Shown: positions 17,333-60,751 of the stretch, one piece after another | Layout: each line of letters begins with the position of its first letter | How positions within the stretch are numbered: position 1 is the stretch's first letter | Assembly (NCBI GenBank): GCA_050123155.1 | Contig: JASFHP010000005.1 | Span: 16,551-80,550, forward strand | Direction of reading: 5' to 3' | Length of the DNA stretch: 64,000 bases | Origin: Candidatus Bathyarchaeota archaeon | GTDB lineage: Archaea > Thermoproteota > Bathyarchaeia > Bathyarchaeales > Bathyarchaeaceae | Notes under the pieces: model-generated | The model's database searches: none | Told to the model about the DNA's origin: nothing | Seen by the model: only the letters and a program-made list of their open reading frames with translations | Program-made: the position numbers and the translations under genes

Positions 17333-18871
17333 ATGTTGAGAAGAAATCTGCCAAGTAGGCGAGAACATGTGAAAAAACGCTCATTGTCTCTGTTTAAAAA
17401 TACAAGTAGCTTGAAATTTGTCGCGGTTTTTGTTTTGGCTCTGGTTTTGAGAGCGTTGCCAGAGTTTTTAAGTGGAAAGTATCCGGTTGGTTTTGATGCT
17501 TTGGGGGGGTATGTTCCCGCTGTTTTGGCTTTGCCTGATGTTTCGCCGATGAGGTTGTTTGGTTGGGTTCATTCGCCTTTGGCGATTTATTTGCTTTGGT
17601 TTGTTCGTGCAGCGACATCTGTTGATGTTTATTTGTTGCTTAAGGTTGTGGGTCCGGTTTTTTTTGGTTTGTTTGGTGTTTCTTTTTGTTATTTGTTGTC
17701 TCGTGGATTGGGATGGGGTGATAAGAAGAGCTTCTTTGTTTCGGTGTTTCTTCTATTGCAGCCAGCGGTGATGAGGATGGGTTGGGATCAGCTTCGCGAG
17801 GAACTGGGGTTGATGTTTTTGTTTGTGTTGTTGGCTGTAACGAAGATGGATTTGGTGAAGGGGGCAAGGTGTAAGCCTTTCTTGGTTGTTGTTTTGTCTG
17901 TGTTGATTGTTTTTTCGCATCAGCTTGCAGCGATATTGTTTTTTGTTATCGTTATTTTCCAAGTGTTTGGTGTTATGATCAAGAAACGAAAAGAGTTCTG
18001 GTATGGCGTGGCAGCAGTTTTTCCTGCGGCATGTTTCTTTGTTTGGCAACTTTACATGTCGTATTTTGTTGACATTGATTTTAGCGCTCATTTTGTTCCG
18101 CTTCGTTTATCAGGCAATACGGGAAATTTTGTGTTTTCGAATTATTTTTTAAGTGACCCACGTTTTTTGGGTGGGGACTACTGGAGAATTTTGAGTTATG
18201 TTGGATGTTTGAGTTTATACGTTGTTGTTCCGTTGATTCCGCTTGCTGCGAAAGGATTTTTTAAAGACAAAGTTTTCATGCCTATGCTTGGCTGGCTGTG
18301 TGTAATGTCTTTCAGTATTCTTGTTTGCCCATGGTATGCATTCGCGGAGTATTGGTGGTGGATTTTGTTGTTGCCGATTCCGCTTACGGTTTTTGCTGGG
18401 GAGGGGTTGGGTAGGTTGAGGGTGTTTAGTGATTTTAGGCAGTTTAGAAAGGCTATTATTGGCGTTGCGTTGTTGGGGGTGGTGGCTTTTGGTTATGCTG
18501 CATCAGTGATTCCAGTAGGTTACCCTTATGCTTACTATTACATGCCTTCTGGGCTTGTGGAATCTTCAGTCCCACTCGAAGACATACCAGACATAAAATC
18601 TGCATTCCAATGGCTTAATGAGAATGCTCAATTAAACTCTTTTATTGTTGTTCCAGAAAAAATGCAGGGTCTGGCTTACACTGAAACACGTGATGATTTC
18701 TTGATTCGGGTTTTACCGCCGCTACTGACATTAACTGACGAATATCTGCCTGAAAACATTGACACGAAGAGCATTTATGCGGTGGAATACACAAAAAACA
18801 TTGATTCTGAAACATTTTCTGGATTACAGGTGGCAGAATCTGGAAAAATTTCTGTGTTCAAAATGCCATGA
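17333..18871 (+). CDS. Polytopic integral membrane protein (512 aa) with C-terminal soluble region; extreme G/T codon bias in its first ~385 codons
   Basis: Long ORF with at least 10 hydrophobic helices. The minus-strand ORFs overlapping it are low-complexity P/T/Q/K artefacts. Confidence 0.7.
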   Translation: MLRRNLPSRREHVKKRSLSLFKNTSSLKFVAVFVLALVLRALPEFLSGKYPVGFDALGGYVPAVLALPDVSPMRLFGWVHSPLAIYLLWFVRAATSVDVYLLLKVVGPVFFGLFGVSFCYLLSRGLGWGDKKSFFVSVFLLLQPAVMRMGWDQLREELGLMFLFVLLAVTKMDLVKGARCKPFLVVVLSVLIVFSHQLAAILFFVIVIFQVFGVMIKKRKEFWYGVAAVFPAACFFVWQLYMSYFVDIDFSAHFVPLRLSGNTGNFVFSNYFLSDPRFLGGDYWRILSYVGCLSLYVVVPLIPLAAKGFFKDKVFMPMLGWLCVMSFSILVCPWYAFAEYWWWILLLPIPLTVFAGEGLGRLRVFSDFRQFRKAIIGVALLGVVAFGYAASVIPVGYPYAYYYMPSGLVESSVPLEDIPDIKSAFQWLNENAQLNSFIVVPEKMQGLAYTETRDDFLIRVLPPLLTLTDEYLPENIDTKSIYAVEYTKNIDSETFSGLQVAESGKISVFKMP

Positions 18872-34829: not shown

Positions 34830-36431
34830 TCAGCTGTTAGGTTTTTTGTTTTTTCTTATTCGGGTTAAACAGAACAGAATTGTTACGATTGCTATGGCGG
34901 CTATGCCTATTGCAGCAACGATCACATGCCAAGTCGAAGGGGTACCGGAGTCGGTGTCAGGAACTGAATCGGGACCATCATCAGAAGTTGAGTCGGTTAC
35001 ATTTACTGTAAAAAAGATAGGTTCTGACGTTCCAACGTTTTCAGAATCATCATTCGCATATACGATGAGAGAATGCGAGCCATCTGTTAACCCTGTCAAA
35101 GTTGTTGCAGTTTCTGTTATGGTCACGTTGTCTTGCCAATCTAAGCTATAACCCATCCACGAAACATCCTCATCAACAGTAAACGCCAAAGTAACATAAT
35201 CTGTGGTGTATGTCTGGTTAGACGGCGAATCAACAATTACAGTGGGAGAAAATATGTCTGGAAAATTGAACCCGATACCAACACCGTATTCGTCAGTCAT
35301 AATTGACCAAATACCATAGGTAGTAGTGGAATACATGGGACCAGCTATTACGTATCCGCTATCAGTATGCTCAACCAACAAACCAATATCATATGCATAG
35401 GTTTGGTTCCACTCCTCGTTTCCATCCGCATCAGTTTTAACCAAAAACCCGTCGTCGTCTGCTAGTACGTATCCGCCATCACTAGTCTCAACCAACAAAC
35501 GAGCCCCATCATAAACTCCAGATCTTCCGTATGTCTGGTTCCACTCCAATTTCCCAAACCTATTAGTTTTAACTAACCAGAAATCTTGTCCACTATCGTC
35601 AAGGGAACTTGTTTCACCAGCTATTGCATATCCGCCATCAGAAGTCTCAACCAGCGCGTAAGCATAATCATAATCAGACTGTCTATATGATTGATTCCAC
35701 TTGGCATTCCCAAACTCGTCAGTTTTAACCAACCAGAAACGATATGGAATAGGAAGGCTTCTATCACCATGATACGAATAACCTGCCAGTGCGTATCCGC
35801 CATCAGAAGTCACGACCAAAGAAGTAATACGACCAGCTATTTCTCTGCTGTATGTTCGGTTCCACTCTTGGTTTCCATCCGCATCAGTCTTAACCAACCA
35901 AAATTTCTCGCTATCATACGAGTCAATATCCCCAAAAGAACATGTGGAACCAGCAATCGCAAAACCGTCATCAGGAGTCACAACCAAAGAGAAGGCGTCT
36001 TCATTCAATCCTCCCCCAAATGTTTGGTTCCATTCAACATTCCCCGACGCATCAGTTTTAACCAACCAAAAATCAACGTTTCCAGCACCAAAAGAAGTTG
36101 TGGAGCCAGCAATTACGTAGCCTCCATCAGAAACCGCGACCACAGAACGAGCCCGTTCGTTACCTGGTCCCCCGTATGTTCTGCTCCACTCAATGGTTCC
36201 AGAAGCATCAAATTTGGTCAAAAAAGCATCATAACTGCGCGCCCAAGAGAAACTTGTCTCACCAGCTACAGCATATCCGCCATCAGAAGTCCCAATTAAC
36301 GAATTAACCAATCCCCCATCATATGTTTGAGCCCACACTGAAGAATCGGCTCCAAACAGAACAACAAAACCAGCACTCGTCAAAACAGAAATCAACAAAC
36401 ATGAAACAAACAGATTTCTACGCACCAACAT
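34830..36431 (-). CDS. Secreted, C-terminally anchored repeat protein (~8 tandem ~45-aa 'DGGY..AG.T...D.WLVKTD..G...WN.TYG' repeats)
   Basis: The start is set at ATG 36431, giving signal-like MLVRRNLFVSCLLISVLTSAGFVVLFG. Repeats are visible by eye. The C-terminus has a Ser/Thr/Asp-rich linker, a TM helix VIVAAIGIAAIAIVTILFCL and a basic tail. The track start at 36518 is probably an over-extension. Confidence 0.75.
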   Translation of the reverse strand: MLVRRNLFVSCLLISVLTSAGFVVLFGADSSVWAQTYDGGLVNSLIGTSDGGYAVAGETSFSWARSYDAFLTKFDASGTIEWSRTYGGPGNERARSVVAVSDGGYVIAGSTTSFGAGNVDFWLVKTDASGNVEWNQTFGGGLNEDAFSLVVTPDDGFAIAGSTCSFGDIDSYDSEKFWLVKTDADGNQEWNRTYSREIAGRITSLVVTSDGGYALAGYSYHGDRSLPIPYRFWLVKTDEFGNAKWNQSYRQSDYDYAYALVETSDGGYAIAGETSSLDDSGQDFWLVKTNRFGKLEWNQTYGRSGVYDGARLLVETSDGGYVLADDDGFLVKTDADGNEEWNQTYAYDIGLLVEHTDSGYVIAGPMYSTTTYGIWSIMTDEYGVGIGFNFPDIFSPTVIVDSPSNQTYTTDYVTLAFTVDEDVSWMGYSLDWQDNVTITETATTLTGLTDGSHSLIVYANDDSENVGTSEPIFFTVNVTDSTSDDGPDSVPDTDSGTPSTWHVIVAAIGIAAIAIVTILFCLTRIRKNKKPNS

Positions 36432-36515
36432 CTCTCCATTGAATATACACTTGCCGAAAACAAGAAAAGCTTTGCGATTAAACCCGCTTTCTCGAATACA
36501 CAGCAAAACATCAAT

Positions 36516-36578
36516 CATATTAGGAGACTAATAGAGGTAGATTGTTGAAAACAGTGTTTTTTCTGGAAATGTGAAGGC
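36516..36578 (+). repeat. Dispersed intergenic repeat, copy 2
   Basis: CATATTAGGAGACTAATAGAGGTAGATTGTTGAAAACAGTGTTTTTTCTGGAAATGTGAAGG. About 85% identical to copy 1 by eye, and it ends 10 nt from the tRNA-Glu 3' end. Confidence 0.85.
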
Positions 36579-42626: not shown

Positions 42627-43394
42627 TTAAGGTTTCTTTCTTAGGTAGAAGAGAACTCTGATTCTGTAAGTGTCGGTTTGTGATGGATTATACTTTTCGT
42701 TTCCTCCGAATCTGGCGAAAACCTCTACGGAGTCATCCCACCAGTCCTGCTGTTTCGCTTTCCAGTCTATACTGAAATCTCCATCTTTGTTTGTCATTCC
42801 AGAGACAAGCACATCGTTACCCATGAAAGATCTGTCTCTCTCGTAAATGTCGATTTTTGCGTCTCCTACCCCTTTACTGGCGTCGCTGGTCATCAGCTTT
42901 CCTTCGAAAGTTACTATCGAATTCAAATCTACGCTAGTGGGAGGACAAGACATCTTAAGAGTAGTGTCCACTGCACCAGCGGCTGGTTGCATCGGAGCTT
43001 CAGCCACTTCCTCCATAACCTGATCCACAGTCAAGTCGTCTATCTCTGCGTCGCAACTTTTTTGCACTGCCTCGATTCCATTCATGCAGCCCTGTTTGCT
43101 TTCATACGCTTCACTGGCTGCAATTATCTCTCCGTTAGGAGCACTCAAATTGAATCTGAACTTTGAAGCTACATCAGTGAAAACCACATATTTGGGGTGC
43201 GGCAGCGTCTCTGCTCCAATTGTCGTGTCTTCTATTTTGGAGTCACAATTCTTTTGTACAGATTTTACGCCGTTCATGCAACCTGCCTTGCTCTCATAGG
43301 CTTCACTAACAGCCACTATTTTGTTGTTTGCTGCGACAAGTCTGAATCTAAATTTGCCTGCGATGTCCTTGTATACCTGATATTTTGCTTTCAA
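42627..43394 (-). CDS. Tandem YegP (DUF1508) domain protein with a C-terminal beta-sandwich-like domain
   Basis: Two repeats, KFRFRLVAANNKIVAVSEAYESKAGCMNGVKSVQKN and KFRFNLSAPNGEIIAASEAYESKQGCMNGIEAVQKS. The C-terminal ~110 aa resembles a carboxypeptidase-regulatory/prealbumin-like domain. Confidence 0.7.
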   Translation of the reverse strand: MKAKYQVYKDIAGKFRFRLVAANNKIVAVSEAYESKAGCMNGVKSVQKNCDSKIEDTTIGAETLPHPKYVVFTDVASKFRFNLSAPNGEIIAASEAYESKQGCMNGIEAVQKSCDAEIDDLTVDQVMEEVAEAPMQPAAGAVDTTLKMSCPPTSVDLNSIVTFEGKLMTSDASKGVGDAKIDIYERDRSFMGNDVLVSGMTNKDGDFSIDWKAKQQDWWDDSVEVFARFGGNEKYNPSQTDTYRIRVLFYLRKKP

Positions 43395-43502: not shown

Positions 43503-44645
43503 TCAAAGTAACCAGCCGAAAAACAGCCTGTACAGCCGATGTTCCAAGATTGTTAGGGGTTTGGCTCTTCCGAATACGCGGAAATAGTCTTTTCCCATAG
43601 CCTCAATCATGTCTCCTATATCATATCTGGGAAACAGGCAAGACGAGATTATGAGCCTCCCCCACTCGCCCCGCTCCAACTCATGGAGCAGCTTGGTGCC
43701 TTTGCCTGTCTCCACCTCGAAATAGTAGGTGTCATAGTTCGGAGAAACGTAAGGCAGGTCATCAAGCTGCTGCATAAACGCTCCCTCGGTGGCGCTGTAC
43801 ATCTCCACTAGCGGAACCTCACCGAAAAGTTTCCTGAGAACAGGACCATACTTGAACTGAATCTTTCTCACGCTGGTGCAGACGAGCAGCTTAAAATTCC
43901 ACAGGTCTTTGGGCGGTTTTCCATGTTTCCGCTTAACGTATCTGGCAAAAGAAAGAATCACAGGCGTTACTCCAATAACGGCAACCACAGGCTGATTCAA
44001 GGCTCTCTGGTAAACCAGCTCGAATCGTTTCTCCCAGTCAGGTCTGCTTATGCCGGAGCCCAGCGCATCTATTTCCTCCTGTCTGGGCAATAGACTGACC
44101 TGATTCAGCATGGGATTGAGTTTCGCGTAGGTTCCTGAGCTGTACCCATAAGTGATCTGCTGTCCACCCGCATCTATGGTGGTCACTGATGAAGGAAAAT
44201 TGAGATTCAGTATCTTTCCCGCCAACACATCCATGCTGTTCTTTCTGAGGGCATAGTTTGTTATGCCTCGTGCTCCGCACATGAAAATCTGTTCAATGTG
44301 GGTCTTTGTAACTGGCAAAACTTTGGACTCGCCTGTGGAGCCTCTGGTCATAACCCAGCATACAGGCTGCTCAGACAGGATGATGGAGTAGTTGCCGGCT
44401 TTAACTTCCTCAAGATATAGACGAAGACCAGCATAGTTGATTGTCGGAAAGTTGGTTCGAAATGCAGCTGCATCCTTCACTTCGTGAACCGAGCGCCTTT
44501 TCCCATAAACTGTTTTCGCGTATCCTTCAAGCAGTTTCTCTAGGACCTGCTGCTGCGCCTCCGCGGGATTCTTCAATGATTCATGCCAAGGAGATACAAT
44601 GTGCTTCAGGATGTCTACGCCAATCATTGCTGACCCAACAACCAA
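43503..44645 (-). CDS. GH3-like / adenylate-forming-superfamily protein (short form)
   Basis: MTRGSTGESKVLPVT resembles the SSGTT-x-GK-x-K-x-IP nucleotide-binding motif of GH3-type amido synthetases. Length is 380 aa. Confidence 0.4.
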   Translation of the reverse strand: MVVGSAMIGVDILKHIVSPWHESLKNPAEAQQQVLEKLLEGYAKTVYGKRRSVHEVKDAAAFRTNFPTINYAGLRLYLEEVKAGNYSIILSEQPVCWVMTRGSTGESKVLPVTKTHIEQIFMCGARGITNYALRKNSMDVLAGKILNLNFPSSVTTIDAGGQQITYGYSSGTYAKLNPMLNQVSLLPRQEEIDALGSGISRPDWEKRFELVYQRALNQPVVAVIGVTPVILSFARYVKRKHGKPPKDLWNFKLLVCTSVRKIQFKYGPVLRKLFGEVPLVEMYSATEGAFMQQLDDLPYVSPNYDTYYFEVETGKGTKLLHELERGEWGRLIISSCLFPRYDIGDMIEAMGKDYFRVFGRAKPLTILEHRLYRLFFGWLL

Positions 44646-50199: not shown

Positions 50200-50712
50200 T
50201 TGATATATGTGTGGAGCCAAATCAAAGAATTCTTCAAAGAATTGCCAGCACAACAACGCGTTGCGCAACTTTTGTTTGAGCGGGGCTTCCAAGTCCATGA
50301 AGACGGCAAAGTAGTAAGCGGTGGAATAGAGATACCTCACACCCAGATTGCAAAGGAAGTGGGTGTTGAGCGCCGAGCCGTTGACAGCACAGTTCAAACG
50401 ATACTCTTGAAGAGTGAACTGAAGAGGATTTACATGAATCTTAGGCAAGTGTGCTCGCTGCAGGAGGTTGCTCGCGAGTTTAATCTGAGTGTGATTGTTT
50501 TTGTTCCTGAAAACGCTAGCCAGACAGGCATTATAGCCGATGTTACGAAGATCGTGTCAGAGAGTGGGCTCAGTATACGGCAGGCTCTGGCTGAAGACCA
50601 CAGCACAAGTGAGCACCCCAAATTAACTCTGATTCTTGAGGGCGACATTCCTTCAGATTTGATTGGTGAGATAAGGAGACTGCCTGGAACCAGAAGCATC
50701 ACAGTGTATTAG
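50200..50712 (+). CDS. ACT-domain regulator-like protein (archaeal 'regulator of amino acid metabolism' type)
   Basis: N-terminal wHTH-like QRVAQLLFERGF..HTQIAKEVGVERRAVDSTVQ. The C-terminal ACT-like region is (VIVFVPENASQTGIIADVTKIVSESGLSIRQ). Confidence 0.6.
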   Translation: MIYVWSQIKEFFKELPAQQRVAQLLFERGFQVHEDGKVVSGGIEIPHTQIAKEVGVERRAVDSTVQTILLKSELKRIYMNLRQVCSLQEVAREFNLSVIVFVPENASQTGIIADVTKIVSESGLSIRQALAEDHSTSEHPKLTLILEGDIPSDLIGEIRRLPGTRSITVY

Positions 50713-51312: not shown

Positions 51313-51720
51313 TCAGGTATAACTCGTGGACTTCACTTCCTTCGCCGCTCCGCCCTCGATTATCTGCTGTTCAAGTTCCTCCAGCTTGCATTTGCATCTT
51401 GAAACGTCGGCAACCACAACCCATTCAGCCGATTTTCCTCTACGAAGAGTCCTCGATTCGCTGGAAAGAAGATCAACCCCCATACTTGCCAGAATGTTCG
51501 CCGCTTTTGCGAGGGCACCGGGCATATCCGAGAAGGCGATGCGGAATTCAACCAGTTTTGCTTCCGGGTCAGCGAAGGGAACGATCCGAACCTCTTTCTC
51601 ATCTAAATCAGCTACCAGCATGACATACATTCCCTCGGAGAGTCTCACGGCTTCGCGGAGATGGGAGGGCATGGTTATTCTTCCCCTGGAGTCGATTCGA
51701 ACTATTTCTGTCATTCGCAT
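51313..51720 (-). CDS. AbrB/SpoVT-domain plus ACT-domain fusion regulator
   Basis: N-terminus VRIDSRGRITMPSHLREAVRLSEGMYV (AbrB type). The C-terminus FRIAFSDMPGALAKAANILASMGVDLLSSES is an ACT beta-alpha-beta unit. It is divergent from the his operon. Confidence 0.7.
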   Translation of the reverse strand: MRMTEIVRIDSRGRITMPSHLREAVRLSEGMYVMLVADLDEKEVRIVPFADPEAKLVEFRIAFSDMPGALAKAANILASMGVDLLSSESRTLRRGKSAEWVVVADVSRCKCKLEELEQQIIEGGAAKEVKSTSYT

Positions 51721-51754
51721 GTTGTTTTGTCTCCCTTATTTTCTTGCAGAAACC

Positions 51755-51763
51755 TTTATATAA
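51755..51763 (+). promoter_or_regulatory. Candidate archaeal TATA box (TTTATATAA) with purine-rich BRE-like AGAAAC upstream, for the his operon
   Basis: Consensus-like TTTATATA in the 95-bp divergent intergenic region, about 53 nt upstream of ATG 51816 and 66 nt upstream of the hisZ frame. Confidence 0.4.
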
Positions 51764-51828
51764 GATGTGCGGAATATGGGTTTCAACCCACAAATTACCC
51801 ATTGGAGGACAAACGATGACAAGGAGGA

Positions 51829-53106
51829 ATAACATTCACCAGACTACACACCCCAAAAGGAACAAGAGACTACCTGCCTAACGAAGTCAAAAAATACCGC
51901 TACATCGAGAACCAGCTGAGAAAAACTTTTGAACTATGGAACTACAGCGAAGTCCGCTCCCCCACCATCGAATTCGTCGAAACCCTATCCACAGGCGTGG
52001 GGTCCGAGCTCGTAGACACCATGTTCAAGTTCCAAGACTTCGACGGAAAGCTTCTGGCATTAAGAGCAGAAATGACGGCGCCAGTCGCCAGAATCGTGAC
52101 AACCAGAATGTCGTCTGCGCCAGAGCCGATTCGCCTATTTTACGTCAACAATGTTTTCAGGTACAGCCAATCTTACCTCAAGAGAGAACGAGAGTTCTGT
52201 CAGGCAGGAGTTGAACTTGTAGGCTGCAACACGCCAGAGGCTGACGGGGAGATACTGTCTCTGTTTATATCATCCCTCAAGCAGGTGGGCTTACAGGAAG
52301 TGAGAATTGACTTAGGTCACGCCAGCCTACTTAAAGACCTATTGAATGCGGCGGGATTGGATGAGCAGCAGAAAGTTTCTGTTTATGGTCTCCTAGCGTG
52401 CCGAGACTTGGTGGGACTAAAGAAGTTCATGGATCAGAACAGTTTTCCCTCAAACTTAAGAGATGCTTTTCTTCAGCTTTCTCGCTGCAGAAGATTAGGT
52501 GAAGTTTCGTCAATTTCTCTCAACGGCTCAAAATACGATGAACTGAACAAGCAGATAGAAAGTCTCTTGGAGCTTCAGGAAATCCTGTCGAACTATGAGA
52601 TAGATGACTTTGTGTTCTTCGACTTTTCTTTGACAAAAAAGATTGAATACTACACTGGGATGGTGTTCGAGGCTTCTGTTCCAAACTTGGGTCTGCCCCT
52701 CGGCGGCGGAGGCAGATACGACAACTTTATCGAAAAATTTGGAAAACTGAGGCTGCCCGCAACAGGCTTCGCTCTGGAAATAGGGAAAATCCTCCAAGCC
52801 CTCACCTCACAGGGTTTCGAAATTCCAGAATCCTCGAAAGCTAAGGTTGTTGTGGCATCCAAATTCAGGGACGCGGCAGTAGAGGCGGTTAAGGCTCTTC
52901 GTGAATCCGGAGTCATCGCCTCACTGGAAATAACAAAGAGATGCCTAGAGAAAACGATGGAATATGGAAAGCTTACGGAGACGGATTACGTGGTTTCGGT
53001 TGGTTCATCCCTTAAATCTCCATTAACAGTTTACGACGTGAAATCAAACGTTTCAAGAGACGTAATGCTCGAAACTTTCTTGGAAGAAGTCGGAGGTCAA
53101 TGTTGA
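51829..53106 (+). CDS. hisZ: ATP phosphoribosyltransferase regulatory subunit (HisRS-like)
   Basis: (I)TFTRLHTPKGTRDYLPNEVKKYRYIENQL.. is the HisS/HisZ N-terminal motif, and it lies upstream of the first canonical in-frame start (GTG 51997). There is no anticodon-binding domain, and a short hisG follows. The start codon is unresolved (ATA 51829, or a frameshift from ATG 51816). Confidence 0.8.
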   Translation: MTFTRLHTPKGTRDYLPNEVKKYRYIENQLRKTFELWNYSEVRSPTIEFVETLSTGVGSELVDTMFKFQDFDGKLLALRAEMTAPVARIVTTRMSSAPEPIRLFYVNNVFRYSQSYLKREREFCQAGVELVGCNTPEADGEILSLFISSLKQVGLQEVRIDLGHASLLKDLLNAAGLDEQQKVSVYGLLACRDLVGLKKFMDQNSFPSNLRDAFLQLSRCRRLGEVSSISLNGSKYDELNKQIESLLELQEILSNYEIDDFVFFDFSLTKKIEYYTGMVFEASVPNLGLPLGGGGRYDNFIEKFGKLRLPATGFALEIGKILQALTSQGFEIPESSKAKVVVASKFRDAAVEAVKALRESGVIASLEITKRCLEKTMEYGKLTETDYVVSVGSSLKSPLTVYDVKSNVSRDVMLETFLEEVGGQC

Positions 53107-53107
53107 A

Positions 53108-53749
53108 ATGAATAAGAAGATTCGCATCGCGATACCCAACAAGGGTCGCCTGAAGGAACCGGCGATTGAGGCGCTGGGGCGGGCAGGAATAGAAGTCTTG
53201 GAAGAGGATAGAGCTTACGTTTCCAAGACCTCTGACCCAAAATTCGAGGCAATCTTCGCCAGAGCCAACGACATACCAGTCTATGTACACTATGGTGCAG
53301 TAGACTTGGGCATCACCGGTCGCGACCTGATTCTGGAAAGAGACGCAGATGTTCTCGAGTTACTGGACCTAGAATTCGGAAAGTGCACTCTCGTTGCTGC
53401 AGTTCCAGAAGATTCAACCATAAATTCTGTGGGTGAGGTTCCTGCTCTGGCAAGGGTTGCAACTGGATTCCCGAACATAACCAGAAAGTTTTTCGAAAAA
53501 ACTGGAAAACAGGTGGAAGTTTTGGAGGTCAGCGGAACAGCAGAACTTGCGCCTAAACTGGGTTTGGCTCAGATAATCGTAGACCTCACATCAACTGGCG
53601 AAACTCTGAGAAAAAACAAGCTCAGAATAATTGGAACAATTCTTGAATCAACCAGCAGACTAGCCTGCAACAAAATCGCGTACAGAACCTTCGAGAAGCA
53701 AATCAGCGAGCTTCTAGCCAGAATGCGAGGAGGGACAGAAGAAGAATGA
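53108..53749 (+). CDS. hisG: ATP phosphoribosyltransferase, short form
   Basis: IRIAIPNKGRL.., DIPVYV..G..DLGITG.D, DLTSTGETLR. At 213 aa it is the short form, consistent with dependence on HisZ. Confidence 0.92.
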   Translation: MNKKIRIAIPNKGRLKEPAIEALGRAGIEVLEEDRAYVSKTSDPKFEAIFARANDIPVYVHYGAVDLGITGRDLILERDADVLELLDLEFGKCTLVAAVPEDSTINSVGEVPALARVATGFPNITRKFFEKTGKQVEVLEVSGTAELAPKLGLAQIIVDLTSTGETLRKNKLRIIGTILESTSRLACNKIAYRTFEKQISELLARMRGGTEEE

Positions 53750-55047
53750 GAATTCTATCATCTCAGGAATTCAAAGAGCAAACGCTCAACCAAGTGCTGA
53801 ACAGAGGAAAATCGGACATATCCTCAATTGAATCCTCAGTTAGAAAGATAGTAGCTGATGTCAGAGAACAGGGCGACAAAGCCCTTCTGAGGTATACAGA
53901 AAAGTTTGACAATGTGCGTCTCCCCGAATCCAAACTGAAGGTTGACGAGAGGGAAATCAAGGAAGCATACAAAAGGCTGAAACAAAGCCAAACTATCGCC
54001 TTACGGAAAGCAGCAGACAACATCGCCAGCTTCCACAAGAAACAGCTCAGAGCCAAGTGGACCATGCAAACCGCGGAGGGAGTAACCCTTGGGCAGGTCA
54101 CCAGACCCCTAGCATCTGTTGGCGTCTACGTTCCTGGAGGAAAAGCAGCCTATCCGTCTTCGGTGCTGATGTGCGCCATGCCCGCTAAGGTGGCTGGAGT
54201 AGAAAAGATCATTGTGTGTTCGCCGCCCGGAAAGGGTGGAGACGTTAATCCGTCGCTTTTGGTTGCAGCCGACATAGCGGGAGTGAGTGAGGTGTATCGG
54301 GTTGGAGGAGCACAAGCCATAGCTGCCATGGCATACGGCACAGAAACGGTGCCAAAAGTAGACAAGATCGTGGGTCCGGGAAACGTTTTCGTGACAACAG
54401 CCAAACTGGAAGTAAGCCGGGACGTGGCTATAGATGTTCCAGCTGGACCAAGCGAGGTTCTGATAATCGCAGACGAATCTGGCAACGCCTCCTTCATAGC
54501 CGCTGACCTTCTTGCCCAAGCGGAACACGACCCCCAAGCATGGGCGATTCTTCTAACCACATCCGAAGCTTTAGCGTCAGCGGTTAAGGAGGAACTTTAC
54601 AGGCAGATGAAGAATCTCTCCAGAACAGAAATCATCAACTCTTCCATACAACAGAGAGGGCTAATAGTGACTGTTAGGAACATCGAAGAGGCGATAGAAT
54701 ACTCGAACCTGATTGCCCCTGAGCACCTGCAGATACAAACAGATAATCCCAATGATGTCCTCCGTAAGATTCGGAACGCTGGAGCAGTATTCTTGGGCAG
54801 ATATTCACCAGTAGCTTTCGGCGATTACTCTTCAGGGTTGAATCATGTTCTTCCCACGGCAGGCTACGCAAAAATTTACTCCGGTCTCTCAAGCCTAGAT
54901 TTTGTTAAGACAATGAACTTTCTCCAGTGCAGCAAGGAAGGCTGTCGGAGCCTGAAAGAAACAACTGTTGCTATCGCAGAGATGGAGGGTTTTGATGCAC
55001 ACGCAAAATCTGTCACCATCAGGGAGGAGAAAAAAAGTGAAGATTAA
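53746..55047 (+). CDS. hisD: Histidinol dehydrogenase
   Basis: [45 protein letters not shown] overlap with hisG. Confidence 0.93.
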
Positions 55048-56128
55048 AGACTTGGTTCAAAAGGAAGTCAGAGACCTTTCCTGCTACGAAGTCAAAACCA
55101 TACTTGGGCAAAAGAAACAAGAAGAACTCGTGAAGATGAACCTGAATGAAAATTTTGCCATGTCAACTGAGACTATACAAGAACTGTTGCTTGAAGCTTG
55201 CCGAAGCATCGATGTTCGTGCGTATCCGCCTCCACGCGGCAGCCTAGCCATCAAAGCTATCTCCCGCTTCCTCGGCGTCAGCGAATCTGAGGTCTCTGTG
55301 GCGAACGGTGCAGATGAGGTCATGGACTTGTTAATGAAAGTGTTTGTTCGTAAGGGTTCGAAGGTTATGGTGGTTGAGCCGTCGTTTCCGATGTATACGT
55401 TCTTTGCGCAGCTGTATGGCGGCAGTGCGGTTCATGTGTTGCTCAGACCAGACTTCAGTTTGGATGTTGACGCCATATTGAATAAGGCGGACAATGATAC
55501 TCGACTGCTTTTCGTTTGTTCACCAAACAACCCAACAGGCAACCAGTTCCGAGAAGCGAACATCAAAAGGCTATTGCAGGAATTCAAGGGTGTCGTCGTT
55601 GTGGATGAAGCCTACGTTGACTTCGCTCAAGGTTCGGTCATAGACTGGGTGAAAGAATATGAAAATCTTGCTGTTTTACGAAGCTTTTCGAAGGCGTTCG
55701 GCTTGGCTGGGCTCCGTCTCGGCTACCTTGTTTCAAGCGCTTCAATCGTAGAGTATGTTCAGAGGGTTGTGGGACCCTTCAACGTGAATTCAGTAACCCA
55801 ACAAACCATAGCATTGGCTCTAGAGAAATGGAGCTACTTTGAACAGCAAATCAAATATGTAGTCAATGAACGGGAATGGCTGATGAAAAAGCTAAGACAA
55901 ATCGATGGAGTAAACCCGTATCCTTCAAGCGCAAACTTCATCCTATTCAAAGTAACCAAACCAAACCTCACCTCTGCAGCCGTAGCTGAGAGAATGGAAA
56001 GCAGAAACGTGCTGGTGAAAGATAGGGGGCACCTACCGCTCCTGGAGAATTGCATACGCGTCACGGTTGGAAGCCGAAACATGAACCAAGCATTCCTTTC
56101 AGCCCTGAAGGAGAGTCTGGAGGAGTAG
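55037..56128 (+). CDS. hisC: Histidinol-phosphate aminotransferase
   Basis: LNENF...YPPP, NPNNPTGN, VVDEAY.DF, RSFSKAFGLAGLRLGY (PLP lysine). The start is set at GTG 55037 (VKIKDLV..), which overlaps hisD by 11 nt. Confidence 0.9.
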   Translation: MKIKDLVQKEVRDLSCYEVKTILGQKKQEELVKMNLNENFAMSTETIQELLLEACRSIDVRAYPPPRGSLAIKAISRFLGVSESEVSVANGADEVMDLLMKVFVRKGSKVMVVEPSFPMYTFFAQLYGGSAVHVLLRPDFSLDVDAILNKADNDTRLLFVCSPNNPTGNQFREANIKRLLQEFKGVVVVDEAYVDFAQGSVIDWVKEYENLAVLRSFSKAFGLAGLRLGYLVSSASIVEYVQRVVGPFNVNSVTQQTIALALEKWSYFEQQIKYVVNEREWLMKKLRQIDGVNPYPSSANFILFKVTKPNLTSAAVAERMESRNVLVKDRGHLPLLENCIRVTVGSRNMNQAFLSALKESLEE

Positions 56129-56133
56129 AAGGA

Positions 56134-57330
56134 ATGGTTTACCAACTGTTGAACGAGGAAAGGCGGATATACGTGAGGGAAGACTCCGAAGAGCCTCTTC
56201 GTGGGATAGAAAAGATAATCTTCGACTTCGATGGGGTGCTTGTTCAAACCAGCCAGTCTTACCGCCAGACAGTGAGAAAGGTTGTTGACTACTACTTCCT
56301 AGAACTATTGGGTCTCGAAGGCGAAGAAGGAAAGCTGGCTACCCTACGGGACATCCAGAAGTTCAAGGACACGGGACTATACAACAACGATTGGAACCTC
56401 TCCTACACCTTCATAACCTACTACCTAACCCTCATAATGAGAGAGCTGGAACAAAAAGGCGCCCTCAAAGAATTCACAAAACAATTCTACATCCTCCAGT
56501 TCTTGGACATCAAAAGCTTCACTCAGTCGCTCCTAAACGTTAGTGACTTCCTTAAGCGCTACGAAATCACCGCCGCAGACCTTGCCAACCTGAAAGACAA
56601 CGGCATCATAAATTTGGATTTGTTCTTGGCGCAAGCCAAACTTGAAAAACCTAAACCCATCGAAACATCGCTTGTGGGAGTCGATCCAGAAGTTGCAGAG
56701 GATGAACAGCTTCTTGTCAGAAAGCTGGTGCCCTATGACCTTGAGAAGCCTGATCTGCTGAAGCGACTGTTTGAGGAAACCTATCTGGGCAAAGAATTGT
56801 TCACCAAAATTTATGCTGCCCAATCATTCTTCAAATTTGACGGAAGCTTCATAGACAAAGAAACGTTCATTCCCACCAAGCAGACCATGGAACTGCTTCG
56901 CAGACAGTTTGGCACGTTCGGAATCTACTCGGGAAGACCCAGACCCCAAGGTATGTACATCCTAGAAAAATACGGTTACACTGGATACTTTGACGAAAAA
57001 GAATCCGTGTTTCTCGGAGACCTCCTCAAGTCCGAGGATAAAATGGAAAAGCTTGGGAAACCAGACCCCACCCTCTTCATCGAGTTGATAGAGAAACTTG
57101 TTGACCGAGAAACTGGAGTGGCGTATGTGGGAGACGGAATCGCCGACGCCCTGCTGGTTGAAAATGCAAGGTCTGAGGGTGCCGAGAATTTGTTGTTTCT
57201 GGGTGTTATGTCCTCATCGGAGGATTCAAATAAGCTTTTTACTGAATACGGCAAACATGGGGCTGACGTAATTATGACCGATGCAAATGACATTCCATTC
57301 ATGCTCAAAAGTTTGGGAGGAAGTGTTTGA
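56134..57330 (+). CDS. HAD-superfamily hydrolase with an unusually large cap insertion; candidate histidinol-phosphatase
   Basis: HAD motifs I FDFDGVL, II GIYSGRPR, III GKPDP, IV VGDGIADA. About 240 aa lie between motifs I and II. It is the only non-his-annotatable gene in the operon, sitting between hisC and hisB. The start is ATG 56134. Confidence 0.7.
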   Translation: MVYQLLNEERRIYVREDSEEPLRGIEKIIFDFDGVLVQTSQSYRQTVRKVVDYYFLELLGLEGEEGKLATLRDIQKFKDTGLYNNDWNLSYTFITYYLTLIMRELEQKGALKEFTKQFYILQFLDIKSFTQSLLNVSDFLKRYEITAADLANLKDNGIINLDLFLAQAKLEKPKPIETSLVGVDPEVAEDEQLLVRKLVPYDLEKPDLLKRLFEETYLGKELFTKIYAAQSFFKFDGSFIDKETFIPTKQTMELLRRQFGTFGIYSGRPRPQGMYILEKYGYTGYFDEKESVFLGDLLKSEDKMEKLGKPDPTLFIELIEKLVDRETGVAYVGDGIADALLVENARSEGAENLLFLGVMSSSEDSNKLFTEYGKHGADVIMTDANDIPFMLKSLGGSV

Positions 57331-57331
57331 A

Positions 57332-57910
57332 ATGAGAAAAGTGAAGGTTGAAAGAAAAACCAAAGAAGTAGAAATAGCCGTGGAGTTAAACGTTGACGGA
57401 AAAGGAAACGCAGATGTGGAGACGGGAATCAAGTTTCTGGACCACATGCTGGTCACTCTAGCGAAGCATGGGCTATTCGACCTGAAAGTCAAAGCAGACG
57501 GAGACCTACCACACCACGTCAGCGAGGATGTAGCATTGGTTCTAGGCGAAGCGCTACGTAAAGTGGTGGCTGAAGGGAAGGGCATCAAACGGTTCGGCTC
57601 AGCCTACGTTCCCATGGACGAATCATTGGCAAGAGCGGCTGTGGACTTGGGCGGAAGAGCCTACTCGATTCGAAACCTCAGACTGATGCAAGCGCAGGTC
57701 GAAGACATGAAAACCGAGGACATGGAACACTTCTTCGACTCCTTAGCCCAAGCCTCGAAAGCAAACATTCACGTAACAGTCATCTACGGCAGCAACGAAC
57801 ACCACAAAGTAGAGGCGGCTGTGAAAGCCTTAGCCTTGGCATTAAGACAAGCATTAACCATTGAGCCGAGAATCGGAGACCAGGTTCCAAGCGCAAAGGG
57901 GGTTCTGTAA
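57332..57910 (+). CDS. hisB: Imidazoleglycerol-phosphate dehydratase
   Basis: RKTKEVEI.V.L..DG.G, GI.FLDHML, DLPHHVSEDVALVLG, NEHHKVEA. ATG 57332 is preceded by GGGAGG. Confidence 0.92.
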   Translation: MRKVKVERKTKEVEIAVELNVDGKGNADVETGIKFLDHMLVTLAKHGLFDLKVKADGDLPHHVSEDVALVLGEALRKVVAEGKGIKRFGSAYVPMDESLARAAVDLGGRAYSIRNLRLMQAQVEDMKTEDMEHFFDSLAQASKANIHVTVIYGSNEHHKVEAAVKALALALRQALTIEPRIGDQVPSAKGVL

Positions 57911-58521
57911 CGGCACCGCAAGTTGCAGTTGTGAACTATGGCGTGGGAAACCTGAGAAGCATCACGAGAGGACTCGAAAAATCGGGAGCAACCGTAGAGA
58001 TAACCCACAACCCAACAAATCTGCGCCGCTCTGATGCCATAGTTCTTCCAGGCGTCGGCGCCTTTGCCCCCGCAGTCAAAAACATGGCACCAATAACTGA
58101 TGTTGTAGCTGAGACAATGAAGAACGGCAAACCTATCCTTGGAGTGTGTTTAGGTCTTCAGCTCCTGTTCACGCGTAGCAGCGAAGGCGGATCAGTCAAT
58201 GGACTGGACTTTATTTCAGGAGACATCGTCAAGTTGCCTGAAACTGTGAAGACTCCCCAGATGGGATGGAACACCCTTAACATGGTGCAGTCGCATCCGC
58301 TGCTTGAGGGCGTTAAAGACGGCTCTTACGTCTATTTCGTTCACTCATACTATCCGCAGCCCACAGACCCACAGGTAATCGTAGCAACCACAGAATACGG
58401 GGTCAGGTTTCCTTCAATGGTTGCAAAAAAGAACCTGTTTGCTACACAGTTTCACCCAGAAAAAAGCAGCAAAACAGGATTAACCATGCTGAAGAACTTC
58501 GTGAGGATCGTGAAGAGGTAA
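57907..58521 (+). CDS. hisH: Imidazole glycerol phosphate synthase, glutamine amidotransferase subunit
   Basis: (QVAVV)NYGVGNLRSI, LPGVGAF, GVCLGLQLL (nucleophile Cys), FHPEKS. The first canonical start (GTG 57931) removes the conserved first beta-strand. The provisional start is GTA 57907, which overlaps the hisB TAA (see finding). Confidence 0.85.
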   Translation, partial: VTAPQVAVVNYGVGNLRSITRGLEKSGATVEITHNPTNLRRSDAIVLPGVGAFAPAVKNMAPITDVVAETMKNGKPILGVCLGLQLLFTRSSEGGSVNGLDFISGDIVKLPETVKTPQMGWNTLNMVQSHPLLEGVKDGSYVYFVHSYYPQPTDPQVIVATTEYGVRFPSMVAKKNLFATQFHPEKSSKTGLTMLKNFVRIVKR

Positions 58522-58526
58522 CCGAG

Positions 58527-59246
58527 ATGATAGTTATCCCCGCAGTCGACATTCTGGACGGAAAATGTGTTCGGCTTGTCCGAGGAGACCCTAGCAGAAG
58601 CAAGATCTACTACGATAATCCGGTGGAGGCGGCTCAACTGCTGGAAGAGCAAGGGGCAGAATTCCTTCATCTGATTGACTTGGATGCCGCGTTAGGTTCT
58701 GGACAAAACTTGGAAACAATCAAAAACGTGTTAGAGAATATCAGTGTGAAGGTGCAGATTGGCGGAGGAATCAGAACCTTGGAAAAGGCTGATGCTCTGC
58801 TGAAACTTGGCGCCTATCGAGTGATCTTCGGAACAACCGCAGTCAACAATCCCCCATTGGTTCAAGAGGCGGTTAGACAGCACGGGCCAGAAAGCGTTGC
58901 CGTAGCCATAGACGAGAAAGACGGGAAAGTGGCAGTTCACGGCTGGAAGAACAGGTCCGAAATAGATTGCTTGAGCCTCGCCCGCACATTCGAAGGGATG
59001 GGAGTCGGCGCCTTAATCTTCACGCCAATCAGCGTGGACGGAACCTTGAAGGGACCAGTAATAGAAAAAACCGTGAAGCTGGTGGAAGCGGTGAAGACTC
59101 CTGTTATCGCGTCTGGTGGCGTAGCCAGCCTTGAAGACTTGGTTGCGCTAACTGGAACTGGCGTGGAGGGTGTGGTGGTTGGCACTGCACTTTACGAGAA
59201 AAGGTTTACATTAAGGGAGGCTTTGGAGGCGGTGAAAGGATGTTAG
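58527..59246 (+). CDS. hisA: ProFAR isomerase
   Basis: [31 protein letters not shown], and a SGGV region. Length is 239 aa. Confidence 0.92.
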
Positions 59247-60049
59247 CTAAGAGAATCGTGCCCTGCTTGGACGTCAAGGATGGAAAGGTTGTGAAGGGCG
59301 TTCAGTTCGTGAACCTGAAAGTTGAGGGAGACCCGCCTGAGCTTGCTGCAGCTTATGAGGAGCAGGGAGCGGATGAGCTGGTTTTCCTTGACATAACTGC
59401 TTCCTACGAGAAGAGGGACACTACATTGAAGGTGGTGAAAAAAACCTCGGATATGATTTCTATTCCCTTCACTGTGGGCGGGGGCATCCGAAACATCAAT
59501 GACATACAGAATGCTCTCTCCAGCGGGGCAGACAAGGTTTCCGTGAACACTGCGGCGGTGAGAGCACCCAATCTTGTGAAGGAATCGGCTGAAGTTTTCG
59601 GCAGCCAATGTATTGTTGTTGCCATAGACGCGAAAAGAGTTTACGTGGACAAAAGTTTGCCTGACAGGACGGTTGTAGATACTCCTAAAGGAAAATGCTG
59701 GTGGGAAGTCTACGTTGAGGGAGGAAGAGTGCCCACTGGAGTAGATGCGATTGCTTGGGCTAAAAACGTGAAGGAGTTGGGTGCAGGGGAACTGCTGCCA
59801 ACAAGCATGGACTGCGACGGAGTACAAACGGGTTATGACATTGAGTTGACGCGAACCATGAGCAAGGTAACCAATCTGCCGATAATTGCCAGCGGAGGCG
59901 CCGGAAACCTTGAACACATCTACGAGGTTTTGACGGAGGGAGACGCTGACGCCGCCCTAGCTGCTTCGATTTTTCATAGGGGTCAGTATTCTGTGGGAGA
60001 AGTTAAGAGCTACCTTTCAGAAAAAGGAGTGCCCATGCGGCTAGTATAA
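59240..60049 (+). CDS. hisF: Imidazole glycerol phosphate synthase, cyclase subunit
   Basis: [40 protein letters not shown]. Length is 269 aa. Confidence 0.93.
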
Positions 60050-60055
60050 CTGAGG

Positions 60056-60751
60056 TTGAGAAAATTGGTGTTACAACTTGATGAAAACGAGATTAACGAG
60101 TTCGTGAAAAAGGTCGACTTTGAGAAGGGTAAAGGTCTTGTTCCCGCTGTGGTTCAGGACGCATCAGACGGTCGGGTGCTGATGCAGGCTTACATGAATG
60201 AGGAAGCAGTACGGTTGACTTTGGCGAGTGGCAAGACACATTTCTGGAGCAGAACCAAGAACAGACTGTGGATGAAAGGCGAAGAGTCTGGGCACTATTC
60301 ACTAGTGCAGAATGCGGTTTTGGACTGTGATGATGATGCGATTCTGTTCAAGGTTCAGCAGATAGGGCCAGTGTGCCACACAGGCGAAGAAACGTGCTTC
60401 TACAAGCCCATAAAGCCCGAAGAAGCGGTGGCGGTTGATGCGAAGATGCTTGAGAGGCTTTTCGAAGTCGTAAAAGAGCGGATTCGAAACCCCACTGAGA
60501 AATCGTATGTTTCCCGCCTGACTGCAGAAGGAGAGGATGCTGTCCTCCAGAAGATAGGGGAAGAAGCAACAGAAATAGTGCTTGCAGCAAAAGCGAACAA
60601 CGCCAAAGATGTTACGCATGAAGCCGCAGACGTGATCTTCCACATCATGGTGATGTTCGCCCAAAAGGGCATCCCACTTAATAGCATCTTCGAAGAGCTG
60701 GAGCGCCGACACAAAAACAAAACAGAAAAATCACAGAAGCAAAGTAAATAA
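60056..60751 (+). CDS. hisIE: Bifunctional phosphoribosyl-AMP cyclohydrolase / phosphoribosyl-ATP pyrophosphatase
   Basis: The HisI part is LVPAVVQD...VLMQAYMN.EA...T...G...FWSR.....W.KGE.SG (with CDDDAILFKV, CHTG). The HisE part is SYVS.L...G.D.V.QKIGEEA.E. Length is 231 aa. Confidence 0.9.
   Translation: MRKLVLQLDENEINEFVKKVDFEKGKGLVPAVVQDASDGRVLMQAYMNEEAVRLTLASGKTHFWSRTKNRLWMKGEESGHYSLVQNAVLDCDDDAILFKVQQIGPVCHTGEETCFYKPIKPEEAVAVDAKMLERLFEVVKERIRNPTEKSYVSRLTAEGEDAVLQKIGEEATEIVLAAKANNAKDVTHEAADVIFHIMVMFAQKGIPLNSIFEELERRHKNKTEKSQKQSK

What the first reader, a model, noticed from the sequence alone, without database searches (positions are those of the whole stretch)
56134..57330. Large-capped HAD hydrolase sits in the only empty slot of a complete his operon: candidate novel histidinol-phosphatase
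hisZ, G, D, C, B, H, A, F and IE cover every step of histidine biosynthesis except histidinol-phosphate phosphatase. The single unassigned operon gene lies between hisC (which makes histidinol-P) and hisB. It has all four HAD motifs: FDFDGVL, GIYSGRPR, GKPDP and VGDGIADA. It is 399 aa with about 240 aa between motifs I and II, far larger than the caps of the known HAD-type (HisB-N/DDDD) enzymes. It is unrelated to the PHP or IMPase-type phosphatases that fill this step elsewhere.
Basis: partly seen in the sequence, partly recalled or inferred. Interest (0 to 1): 0.6.

Follow-up and report, generated by a model that had tools for sequence, protein, structure and literature searches.

The report
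Archaeal-type histidinol-phosphate phosphatase, already described
The unassigned gene in this archaeal histidine operon is very probably the missing histidinol-phosphate phosphatase, but it belongs to a large-capped HAD enzyme family whose activity was shown experimentally in 2024, so it is a new member of a known kind, not a new enzyme type.

Summary
Window 56134-57330 (+) encodes a 398-aa HAD hydrolase with all four catalytic motifs. It sits 5 nt after hisC and 1 nt before hisB, in a Bathyarchaeia operon hisZ-G-D-C-[HAD]-B-H-A-F-IE. The functional guess, histidinol-phosphate phosphatase (HolPase), is well supported.

- Relatives down to 24-29% identity occupy the same slot, directly upstream of hisB, in Nitrososphaerales, marine Thermoproteota, other Bathyarchaeia and a bacterium. 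Two more bacterial relatives follow a HisA/HisF-family gene.
- The best-conserved parts of the protein are the cap segments that carry the published substrate-binding fingerprint.

The novelty claim fails. Kinateder et al. 2024 (PMC10804674) purified Nmar_1556 (nmHisN), the HAD gene between hisC and hisB of Nitrosopumilus. They showed specific HolPase activity, described its single large helical cap, and found homologues in Thaumarchaeota and Bathyarchaeota.

This protein carries Y43/K78/D86 of their Y24/D25/K56/E64 fingerprint. It has R44 where nmHisN has D25, the variant they could only call 'likely'. The conserved operon position of R-type members is modest new support for that call.

Pfam and NCBIfam still give only generic HAD names. 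I could not retrieve the Nmar_1556 sequence, so family membership rests on a Nitrososphaerales orthologue in the same slot.

The parts
56134..57330 (+). hisN-like gene: 398-aa HAD-superfamily phosphatase with a large helical C1 cap (nmHisN-type HolPase candidate)
   Evidence: ORF and motifs; PF00702/PF13419 and TIGR01548 at 83.6 bits; AF2 model pLDDT 94
56221..56241 (+). HAD motif I FDFDGVL (D31 nucleophile, D33 general acid/base)
   Evidence: D31 and D33 invariant in 132 relatives
56257..56394 (+). Cap segment with the published HolPase fingerprint: Y43 (=Y24), R44 (=D25), V47 (=I28), I74 (=I52), K78 (=K56), D86 (=E64), within S-Y-R...F-K-D-T-G-L-Y-N-N-D-W
   Evidence: fingerprint definition from PMC10804674
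56455..56748 (+). Residues 108-205: six-helix insertion in the cap, absent from the short-cap relative 6iah and least conserved part of the protein
   Evidence: family profile matches 6iah in two stretches that skip about 80 profile positions; helices 111-198; conservation by region
56749..56874 (+). Residues 206-247: last cap helix and linker with near-invariant F213, E215, G219, G238, E243 (RLFEETYLG...G.I..E)
56920..56943 (+). HAD motif II GIYSGRPR (S266)
57055..57069 (+). HAD motif III GKPDP (K309, invariant)
57127..57150 (+). HAD motif IV VGDGIADA (D334, D338; Mg2+ ligands)
51820..53106 (+). hisZ (ATP-PRT regulatory subunit); start uncertain, no canonical start codon upstream of the conserved GTRDYLP motif
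53108..53749 (+). hisG (short form)
53746..55047 (+). hisD
55037..56128 (+). hisC (GTG start inferred from 363-aa orthologues and an upstream GGGAGGAG)
57332..57910 (+). hisB (monofunctional IGP dehydratase, no phosphatase domain)
   Evidence: NCBIfam alignment starts at residue 17-18 of the longer ORF; ATG and Shine-Dalgarno-like site
57931..58521 (+). hisH
58527..59246 (+). hisA
59240..60049 (+). hisF
60056..60751 (+). hisIE (fused)

Best explanation
The gene encodes the histidinol-phosphate phosphatase (EC 3.1.3.15) of this Bathyarchaeia genome. It is a member of the archaeal nmHisN/toHisN lineage of HAD phosphatases. Inferred mechanism, standard for HAD phosphatases: D31 attacks the phosphate of L-histidinol phosphate to form an aspartyl-phosphate. 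D33 acts as general acid/base. S266 and K309 hold the phosphoryl group. D334 and D338 hold Mg2+. Specificity comes from the helical cap that closes over the site. Y43, K78 and D86, with N84, W87 and the F213-E215-G219 helix, are inferred to contact the imidazole and amino groups, as mapped by alanine scanning in nmHisN. The enzyme takes the product of the upstream gene (hisC) and hands histidinol to HisD. Tight spacing with hisC and hisB suggests co-translation. Shown here: the gene, motifs, fold, homology and conserved operon slot. Inferred: substrate, residue roles and coupling.
For: (1) The operon holds every his step except HolPase, and this is its only unassigned gene. (2) Literature: Nmar_1556, the HAD gene between hisC and hisB of N. 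maritimus, is a specific HolPase (kcat 0.79 s-1, KM 73 uM, nine other phosphoesters not hydrolysed). It has one large helical cap insertion, and homologues occur in Thaumarchaeota and Bathyarchaeota. (3) A Nitrososphaerales protein in exactly that slot (P0406, L018/L019) aligns end to end with ours: 29% identity, E 3e-34. Its AF2 model has a nine-helix cap; ours has ten. (4) Relatives of 24-43% identity lie directly upstream of hisB in L011-L016, L022 and L023. Two bacterial relatives follow a HisA/HisF-family (PF00977) gene in L017 and L020. Only one of the relatives checked outside the query's own clade, on a 4 kb contig, showed no his neighbour. The four longer Bathyarchaeia loci from the genome scan have a matching ORF layout around the gene (L005, L008, L009), and L004 shares the upstream regulator and promoter block. 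(5) The family profile hits the Thermococcus phosphatase 6iah, a relative of the proven toHisN, at E 1.6e-33. (6) Fingerprint positions Y43, K78, D86, V47 and I74 match nmHisN or toHisN states. (7) The fingerprint-bearing cap segments are the most conserved regions of the protein.
Against: No enzyme assay exists for this protein or for any R44-type member. Position 44 is Arg where nmHisN has D25, and D25A lowers kcat/KM about 220-fold; the authors call the function of R-type sequences likely but less certain. I could not retrieve the Nmar_1556 sequence itself, so homology to it is shown through a proxy. Only 64 kb of the genome was visible, so a second HolPase elsewhere cannot be excluded. The score to TIGR01548 is below its trusted cut-off. 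The Thermococcus relative Tt82 (6iah) is, from my recollection of its publication title, reported to have diverse substrate specificity.
Confidence: 0.87

Rival explanations
1. A HAD phosphatase with another or a broad substrate range (for example phosphoglycolate or sugar phosphates, as the JGI label 'phosphoglycolate phosphatase-like' suggests) that merely rides in the his operon. HolP would then be hydrolysed by an enzyme encoded elsewhere.
For: Database names are generic. Weak NCBIfam hits to phosphoglycolate phosphatase and beta-phosphoglucomutase models. R44 replaces the D25 that matters in nmHisN. The solved relative 6iah is, from my recollection of its publication title, described as having diverse substrate specificity.
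Against: The generic names are COG0546-type transfers. The slot next to hisB is kept over 24-29% identity and across archaea and bacteria, which a passenger gene would not show. No other candidate lies in the window. The operon has no other gap.
Confidence: 0.07
2. A HolPase whose extra about 100-residue helical subdomain (108-205) and N-terminal beta-hairpin (1-24) add a second role, such as docking to HisC or HisB for channelling, or regulation.
For: The insertion and hairpin are absent from short-cap relatives but kept in length in Bathyarchaeia and Nitrososphaeria. They are modelled with confidence. The gene is tightly packed between hisC and hisB.
Against: These are the least conserved parts of the protein. 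nmHisN is a monomer and is active alone. Bacterial his-linked relatives have shorter caps.
Confidence: 0.05
3. A catalytically inactive HAD-like protein with a structural or regulatory role.
For: None found.
Against: All catalytic residues of motifs I-IV are intact, and invariant or nearly so in the family.
Confidence: 0.01

Closest known systems
nmHisN (Nmar_1556) of Nitrosopumilus maritimus, archaeal HAD-type HolPase (Kinateder et al. 2024, PMC10804674)
   Same: HAD core. A single very large all-helical cap between motifs I and II. Gene between hisC and hisB. Fingerprint Y, K and accessory hydrophobics conserved. Family reported in Thaumarchaeota and Bathyarchaeota. A Nitrososphaerales orthologue in that slot aligns full length with ours.
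   Different: R44 instead of D25, and D86 instead of E64 (the toHisN state). Three extra residues between Y and K. About 20 extra N-terminal residues forming a beta-hairpin, judged from the published numbering. No YDKE-type sequence appeared among the 150 closest representatives (E up to 1e-18), so nmHisN-like sequences are probably more distant than those. No assay for this protein.
toHisN (Thermococcus onnurineus HolPase, Lee et al. 2008 as cited in PMC10804674) and its solved relative Tt82, PDB 6iah
   Same: Same HAD lineage: family profile against 6iah E 1.6e-33, Foldseek TM 0.71 on the target length. D at the E64 position. Shared cap helices and the F..YLG helix.
   Different: 6iah is 240 aa and lacks the roughly 80-100 residue insertion (our 108-205) and the N-terminal hairpin. 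It has a YDRD fingerprint against our YRKD.
TIGR01548 (HAD-SF-IA-hyp1), NCBIfam 'hypothetical equivalog'
   Same: Best NCBIfam match for our protein and for all 132 relatives tested.
   Different: The 197-position model lacks the cap insertion. Our score of 83.6 bits is below the 140.2 cut-off. The model carries no function name.
PDB 1qyi, Staphylococcus aureus Q8NW41, structural-genomics protein of unknown function
   Same: Best structural match: 380 aa, TM 0.62-0.64, Foldseek E 5.7e-10. Full-length match to the family profile, E 8.2e-33. It is a solved example of the long-cap architecture.
   Different: 18% identity. Fingerprint F-D-K-N, with N at the D86 position. Function and gene context unknown to me.
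HisB-N of E. coli (HAD-IIIA/DDDD HolPase), paHisN (PSPase-like HAD), PHP-type HisJ/HisK, IMPase-type HisN
   Same: Same reaction. HisB-N and paHisN share only the HAD core chemistry.
   Different: HisB-N and paHisN have small, unrelated caps. No hit of our protein to TIGR01656, PHP or IMPase models.

Membership tests
nmHisN-type archaeal HolPase (Kinateder et al. 2024) | HAD Rossmann-like core with motifs I-IV intact | tested here: met
   D31/D33, S266, K309, D334/D338; PF00702; AF2 model pLDDT 94
nmHisN-type archaeal HolPase (Kinateder et al. 2024) | One large all-helical cap insertion between motif I and motif II (nine helices in nmHisN) | tested here: met
   Ten helices at residues 43-227; nine in the Nitrososphaerales orthologue P0406; published description
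nmHisN-type archaeal HolPase (Kinateder et al. 2024) | Fingerprint Y24 | tested here: met
   Y43; Y in 122 of 137 relatives
nmHisN-type archaeal HolPase (Kinateder et al. 2024) | Fingerprint D25 | tested here: not met
   R44, the state the paper reports for its Euryarchaeota cluster II and delta-proteobacterial clusters and rates 'likely HolPase, less reliable'. The position varies in the family (R 53, D 37, N 20; F in the Nitrososphaerales orthologue).
nmHisN-type archaeal HolPase (Kinateder et al. 2024) | Fingerprint K56 (or R, as in toHisN) | tested here: met
   K78; K 84 and R 52 of 137
nmHisN-type archaeal HolPase (Kinateder et al. 2024) | Fingerprint E64 (or D, as in toHisN) | tested here: met
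   D86 in NNDW; D in 131 of 137
nmHisN-type archaeal HolPase (Kinateder et al. 2024) | Accessory hydrophobic residues I28 and I52 | tested here: met
   V47 and I74
nmHisN-type archaeal HolPase (Kinateder et al. 2024) | Gene located in a his cluster between hisC and hisB | tested here: met
   Window; also L014, L016, L018/19, L022, L023
nmHisN-type archaeal HolPase (Kinateder et al. 2024) | Significant sequence similarity to Nmar_1556 itself | not testable with these tools
Proxy: Nitrososphaerales orthologue P0406 in the same slot, 29% identity over the full length, E 3e-34.
nmHisN-type archaeal HolPase (Kinateder et al. 2024) | Mg2+-dependent, specific hydrolysis of L-histidinol phosphate | not testable with these tools
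   Needs an enzyme assay or complementation
TIGR01548 (HAD-SF-IA-hyp1) | Score at or above the curated cut-off of 140.2 bits | tested here: not met
   83.6 bits, in two stretches interrupted by the cap insertion. It is still the best model for all 132 relatives.
HisB-N / HAD-IIIA (DDDD) HolPase | Match to TIGR01656/TIGR01261-type histidinol-phosphatase domain; small cap; usually fused to IGPD | tested here: not met
   No such hit for our protein at E up to 0.01. hisB here is monofunctional; the match to the bifunctional model NF003937 covers only its IGPD half, positions 165-355.
PHP-type (HisJ/HisK) and IMPase-type (HisN) HolPases | PHP (PF02811) or inositol monophosphatase (PF00459) domain | tested here: not met
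   Neither domain is in this protein nor in any of about 60 ORFs of the window

The most novel reading that the evidence does not exclude
R44-type members (R44 always paired with K78, against D44 paired with R78) could form a mechanistically distinct sub-class. They would bind histidinol phosphate through a re-wired charge network. The about 100-residue helical insertion and the N-terminal hairpin would then serve a second role, such as docking to HisC or HisB for channelling. That would make this a new variant rather than a plain orthologue of nmHisN.
Probability: 0.1. Interest if true: 0.5.

Novelty: new member of a known kind. Interest (0 to 1): 0.25.

Why it matters
HolPase is the step of histidine biosynthesis most often left unassigned. 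GapMind 2026 reports it missing in 20% of prototrophic genomes. This locus shows that the nmHisN-type enzyme fills the gap in Bathyarchaeia. It also shows that members with Arg at the D25 position keep the hisC-hisB slot in archaea and in a bacterium. That strengthens a functional assignment the 2024 paper could only call likely.

The practical gain is in annotation. Pfam and NCBIfam return only generic HAD or TIGR01548 labels for all 132 relatives tested, and the source names seen for the sequences retrieved here are 'HAD family hydrolase', 'hypothetical protein' or 'phosphoglycolate phosphatase-like'. It does not change what is known about how histidine is made.

Tried and rejected
- **Retrieving Nmar_1556.** The paper has no held supplement. 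The single genome-contig scan went to the query and returned only Bathyarchaeia. A search seeded with the K/E-type representative P0167 returned Nitrososphaerota, Nitrososphaerales and Bathyarchaeia proteins, but no named N. maritimus entry and no YDKE fingerprint. I used the Nitrososphaerales orthologue P0406 as a proxy.
- **Profile search of the 5.8-billion database with the family alignment.** Close Bathyarchaeia sequences swamped the listing. It added only four distant hits.
- **'The large cap is unusual'.** Rejected: the motif I to motif II distance is 160-245 residues in essentially all 137 relatives.
- **'Family members are not his-linked'.** Three bacterial relatives first looked unlinked. 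For two of them the cut-off upstream gene proved to be a HisA/HisF-family (PF00977) gene.
- **Known RNA element in the conserved block upstream of hisZ.** Rfam found nothing.
- **HisB-N, paHisN, PHP and IMPase membership.** Considered and rejected on domain evidence.

Full report
**Observation**

Window 56134-57330 (+) is a 398-codon ORF plus stop. Its ATG lies 5 nt after the hisC stop and is preceded by GGAGGAG. Its TGA lies 1 nt before the hisB ATG at 57332.
- FDFDGVL at 30-36
- GIYSGRPR at 263-270
- GKPDP at 308-312
- VGDGIADA at 332-339

The nucleophile D31 and the motif II serine S266 are 235 residues apart. Pfam assigns PF00702 and PF13419. Equivalog-level NCBIfam models identify the neighbours as hisZ, hisG, hisD, hisC, hisB (dehydratase only), hisH, hisA, hisF and fused hisIE. 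An identical protein is on record from a 'Candidatus Bathyarchaeota archaeon' MAG.

**What is already known**

A literature search found Kinateder et al. 2024 (PMC10804674). They started from a 2009 note that Thaumarchaeota carry an uncharacterised hydrolase gene between hisC and hisB.
- They purified Nmar_1556 of Nitrosopumilus maritimus and showed specific HolPase activity: kcat 0.79 s-1, KM 73 uM, and nine other phosphoesters not hydrolysed.
- They described a HAD fold with one large cap insertion of nine helices.
- They defined a fingerprint by alanine scanning: Y24, D25, K56, E64, with accessory I28 and I52.
- Their similarity network has a cluster of Thaumarchaeota and Bathyarchaeota sequences. 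A second, euryarchaeal cluster and some delta-proteobacterial sequences have Arg at position 25. The authors rated those 'likely' HolPases, with less certainty.
- The Thermococcus enzyme toHisN (fingerprint YDRD) is a distant homologue with a smaller cap.

**Is this protein in that family?**

I could not obtain the Nmar_1556 sequence itself. The link rests on four lines of evidence.

1. *Family size and shape.* An exhaustive search of 1.84 billion cluster representatives found 354 relatives at E below 1e-10. The top 150 are mostly 300-440 aa. In an alignment of 137 of them, the motif I to motif II distance is 160-245 residues, so the big cap is a family trait.
2. *Fingerprint.* The published positions map to Y43, R44, V47, I74, K78 and D86. 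The spacing fits the published numbering after a 3-residue indel. The family shows YRKD (47), YDRD (34) and YNRD (14). These are the states the paper reports, except that its commonest state, nmHisN's own YDKE, did not appear among the relatives retrieved here.
3. *Thaumarchaeal orthologue.* P0406, named 'HAD family hydrolase [Nitrososphaerales archaeon]', sits in hisG-D-C-[HAD]-B-H-A-F-I (L018/L019). It aligns with ours over the full length at 29% identity, E 3e-34. Its AF2 model (pLDDT 93) has nine cap helices, as published for nmHisN. Our model (pLDDT 94, pTM 0.91) has ten.
4. *Solved relatives.* The family profile matches the Thermococcus phosphatase 6iah at E 1.6e-33 and the S. aureus protein 1qyi at E 8.2e-33. 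These are also the two best Foldseek hits.

**Gene context**

They are.
- The three longest Bathyarchaeia loci from the genome scan (L005, L008, L009; 65-70% identity) have a matching ORF layout around the gene. L004 (73% identity) shares the upstream regulator and promoter block.
- Relatives at 24-43% identity lie directly upstream of hisB in these loci:
  - AT-rich marine Thermoproteota contigs (L011-13, L015);
  - L014;
  - a hydrothermal-vent contig (L016);
  - Nitrososphaerales (L018/19);
  - a second, divergent Bathyarchaeia type (L023);
  - a bacterium-like contig with PlsY and a response regulator (L022, YRKD type).
- Two bacterial relatives that first looked unlinked lie directly downstream of a HisA/HisF-family (PF00977) gene.
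- One relative, on a 4 kb contig, shows no his neighbour.

**Anatomy and likely mechanism**

The core should work as any HAD phosphatase. D31 is the nucleophile and D33 the acid/base. S266 and K309 sit on the phosphate, and D334 and D338 on Mg2+. This is inferred from the superfamily.

The cap has two kinds of sequence. Segments 42-107 and 206-247 are shared with the short-cap relative 6iah and are the best-conserved parts of the protein, better than the core. Segment 108-205 (six helices) and the N-terminal hairpin 1-24 are the least conserved. The near-invariant cap residues S42, Y43, G81, N84, D86, W87, F213, E215, G219, G238 and E243 all lie in the shared segments. So substrate recognition most likely resides there, as mapped in nmHisN. 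The insertion is probably structural.

Position 44 is variable (R, D, N, F and others) and co-varies with 78: R44 goes with K78 in 53 of 53 sequences, and D44 with R78 in 36 of 37. Shared ancestry could explain this, so I treat it as a lead only.

**Limits**

- No assay exists for an R44-type member.
- Only 64 kb of the genome could be checked for other HolPases, and none was found.
- NCBIfam places the protein nearest TIGR01548 but below its cut-off (83.6 against 140.2 bits). All 132 relatives behave the same way, and no library names the family as a HolPase.

**Verdict**

The function call is right, at about 0.87 confidence. The enzyme type is already known, so this is a new member of a known kind. 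The residual value is better annotation, plus contextual support for the R-type subgroup.

**Side observation: candidate his regulator**

Upstream of hisZ lies a block of about 53 nt, GAAACCTTTATATAAGATGTGCGGAATATGGGTTTCAACCCACAAATTACCCA. It contains a TATA box and the palindrome GGGTT-TC-AACCC. It is almost invariant in six Bathyarchaeia loci (1-2 substitutions each), four of which have HAD proteins only 65-73% identical to the window's.

The divergent neighbour (51313-51720, minus strand) is a 135-aa protein. It has an ACT domain that just reaches the Pfam cut-off and a weak AbrB/MazE-like N-terminus. It is conserved at 78-93% identity in five of those loci. This looks like a candidate amino-acid-responsive regulator with its operator. 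I followed it up only partly.

Noticed in passing
window 51745-51805 (also L004, L005, L008, L009, L010 upstream of hisZ): A block of about 53 nt, GAAACCTTTATATAAGATGTGCGGAATATGGGTTTCAACCCACAAATTACCCA, with an archaeal TATA box and the perfect palindrome GGGTT-TC-AACCC. It is nearly invariant (1-2 substitutions each) in six Bathyarchaeia loci, four of which have HAD proteins only 65-73% identical to the window's. No Rfam match. It is probably the his promoter plus an operator.
   Followed up: partly
window 51313-51720 (-): A 135-aa gene divergent from the his operon. It has an ACT domain (27.7 bits, cut-off 27) after a weak AbrB/MazE/MraZ-like N-terminus. It is 78-93% conserved beside the his operon in five related loci. 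Candidate amino-acid-sensing regulator of the operon.
   Followed up: partly
window 50200-50712 (+): A second small protein (170 aa) with faint ACT and helix-turn-helix signals. ORFs of similar size lie at the same place in L005, L008 and L009.
   Followed up: no
window 51816-51997: hisZ has no ATG, GTG or TTG between the in-frame stop (51817-51819) and the conserved N-terminal GTRDYLP motif. An ATG at 51816 is one base out of frame, and a strong AAGGAGG lies just upstream. L005 shows the same problem, so this is a non-canonical start or a shared frameshift rather than a one-off error.
   Followed up: partly
protein residues 44 and 78 (window 56263-56265 and 56365-56367): Across 137 relatives, Arg at position 44 always goes with Lys at 78 (53 of 53), and Asp at 44 goes with Arg at 78 (36 of 37). 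This may be charge compensation in the active site, or it may only reflect shared ancestry.
   Followed up: partly
PDB 1qyi (S. aureus Q8NW41): A 2003 structural-genomics protein of unknown function is a full-length member of this long-cap HAD family (profile E 8.2e-33, TM 0.62-0.64). Its fingerprint is F-D-K-N. Its substrate and gene context are unknown to me.
   Followed up: no
L022 8722-10041 and 7775-8221: In a bacterium-like his operon that carries a YRKD-type relative between hisC and hisB, a DDE transposase gene sits between hisH and hisA, and an acetyltransferase gene sits between hisB and hisH.
   Followed up: no
L011 6492-7117 and L013 4409-4801, compared with L012 6159-6788: hisB is called as two short pieces or truncated in two marine contigs, but intact (209 aa) in a near-identical third. 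These are probably assembly frameshifts.
   Followed up: no
window 1-26000: A glycosylation and nucleotide-sugar cluster: GT2 and GT4 transferases, Alg14/GT28 pair, UDP-GlcNAc 2-epimerase, RmlA/C/D-like genes. Several stretches have lower G+C (34-40% against 44-51% elsewhere). Large ORFs without any Pfam hit lie at 8232-10097 (621 aa), 17333-18871 (512 aa) and 18883-21552 (889 aa).
   Followed up: no
window 34830-36518 (-), 42627-43394 (-), 43503-44645 (-): A 562-aa ORF with no Pfam hit, a protein with two DUF1508 repeats, and a GH3-family N-terminal domain protein.
   Followed up: no
window 60056-60751: hisI and hisE are fused here. The Nitrososphaerales, marine Thermoproteota and type-B Bathyarchaeia operons fetched carry only a PRA-CH (hisI) gene of about 110 aa at that position. 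A 2024 survey (PMC11237513) lists split HisI/HisE pairs for Bathyarchaeota.
   Followed up: no
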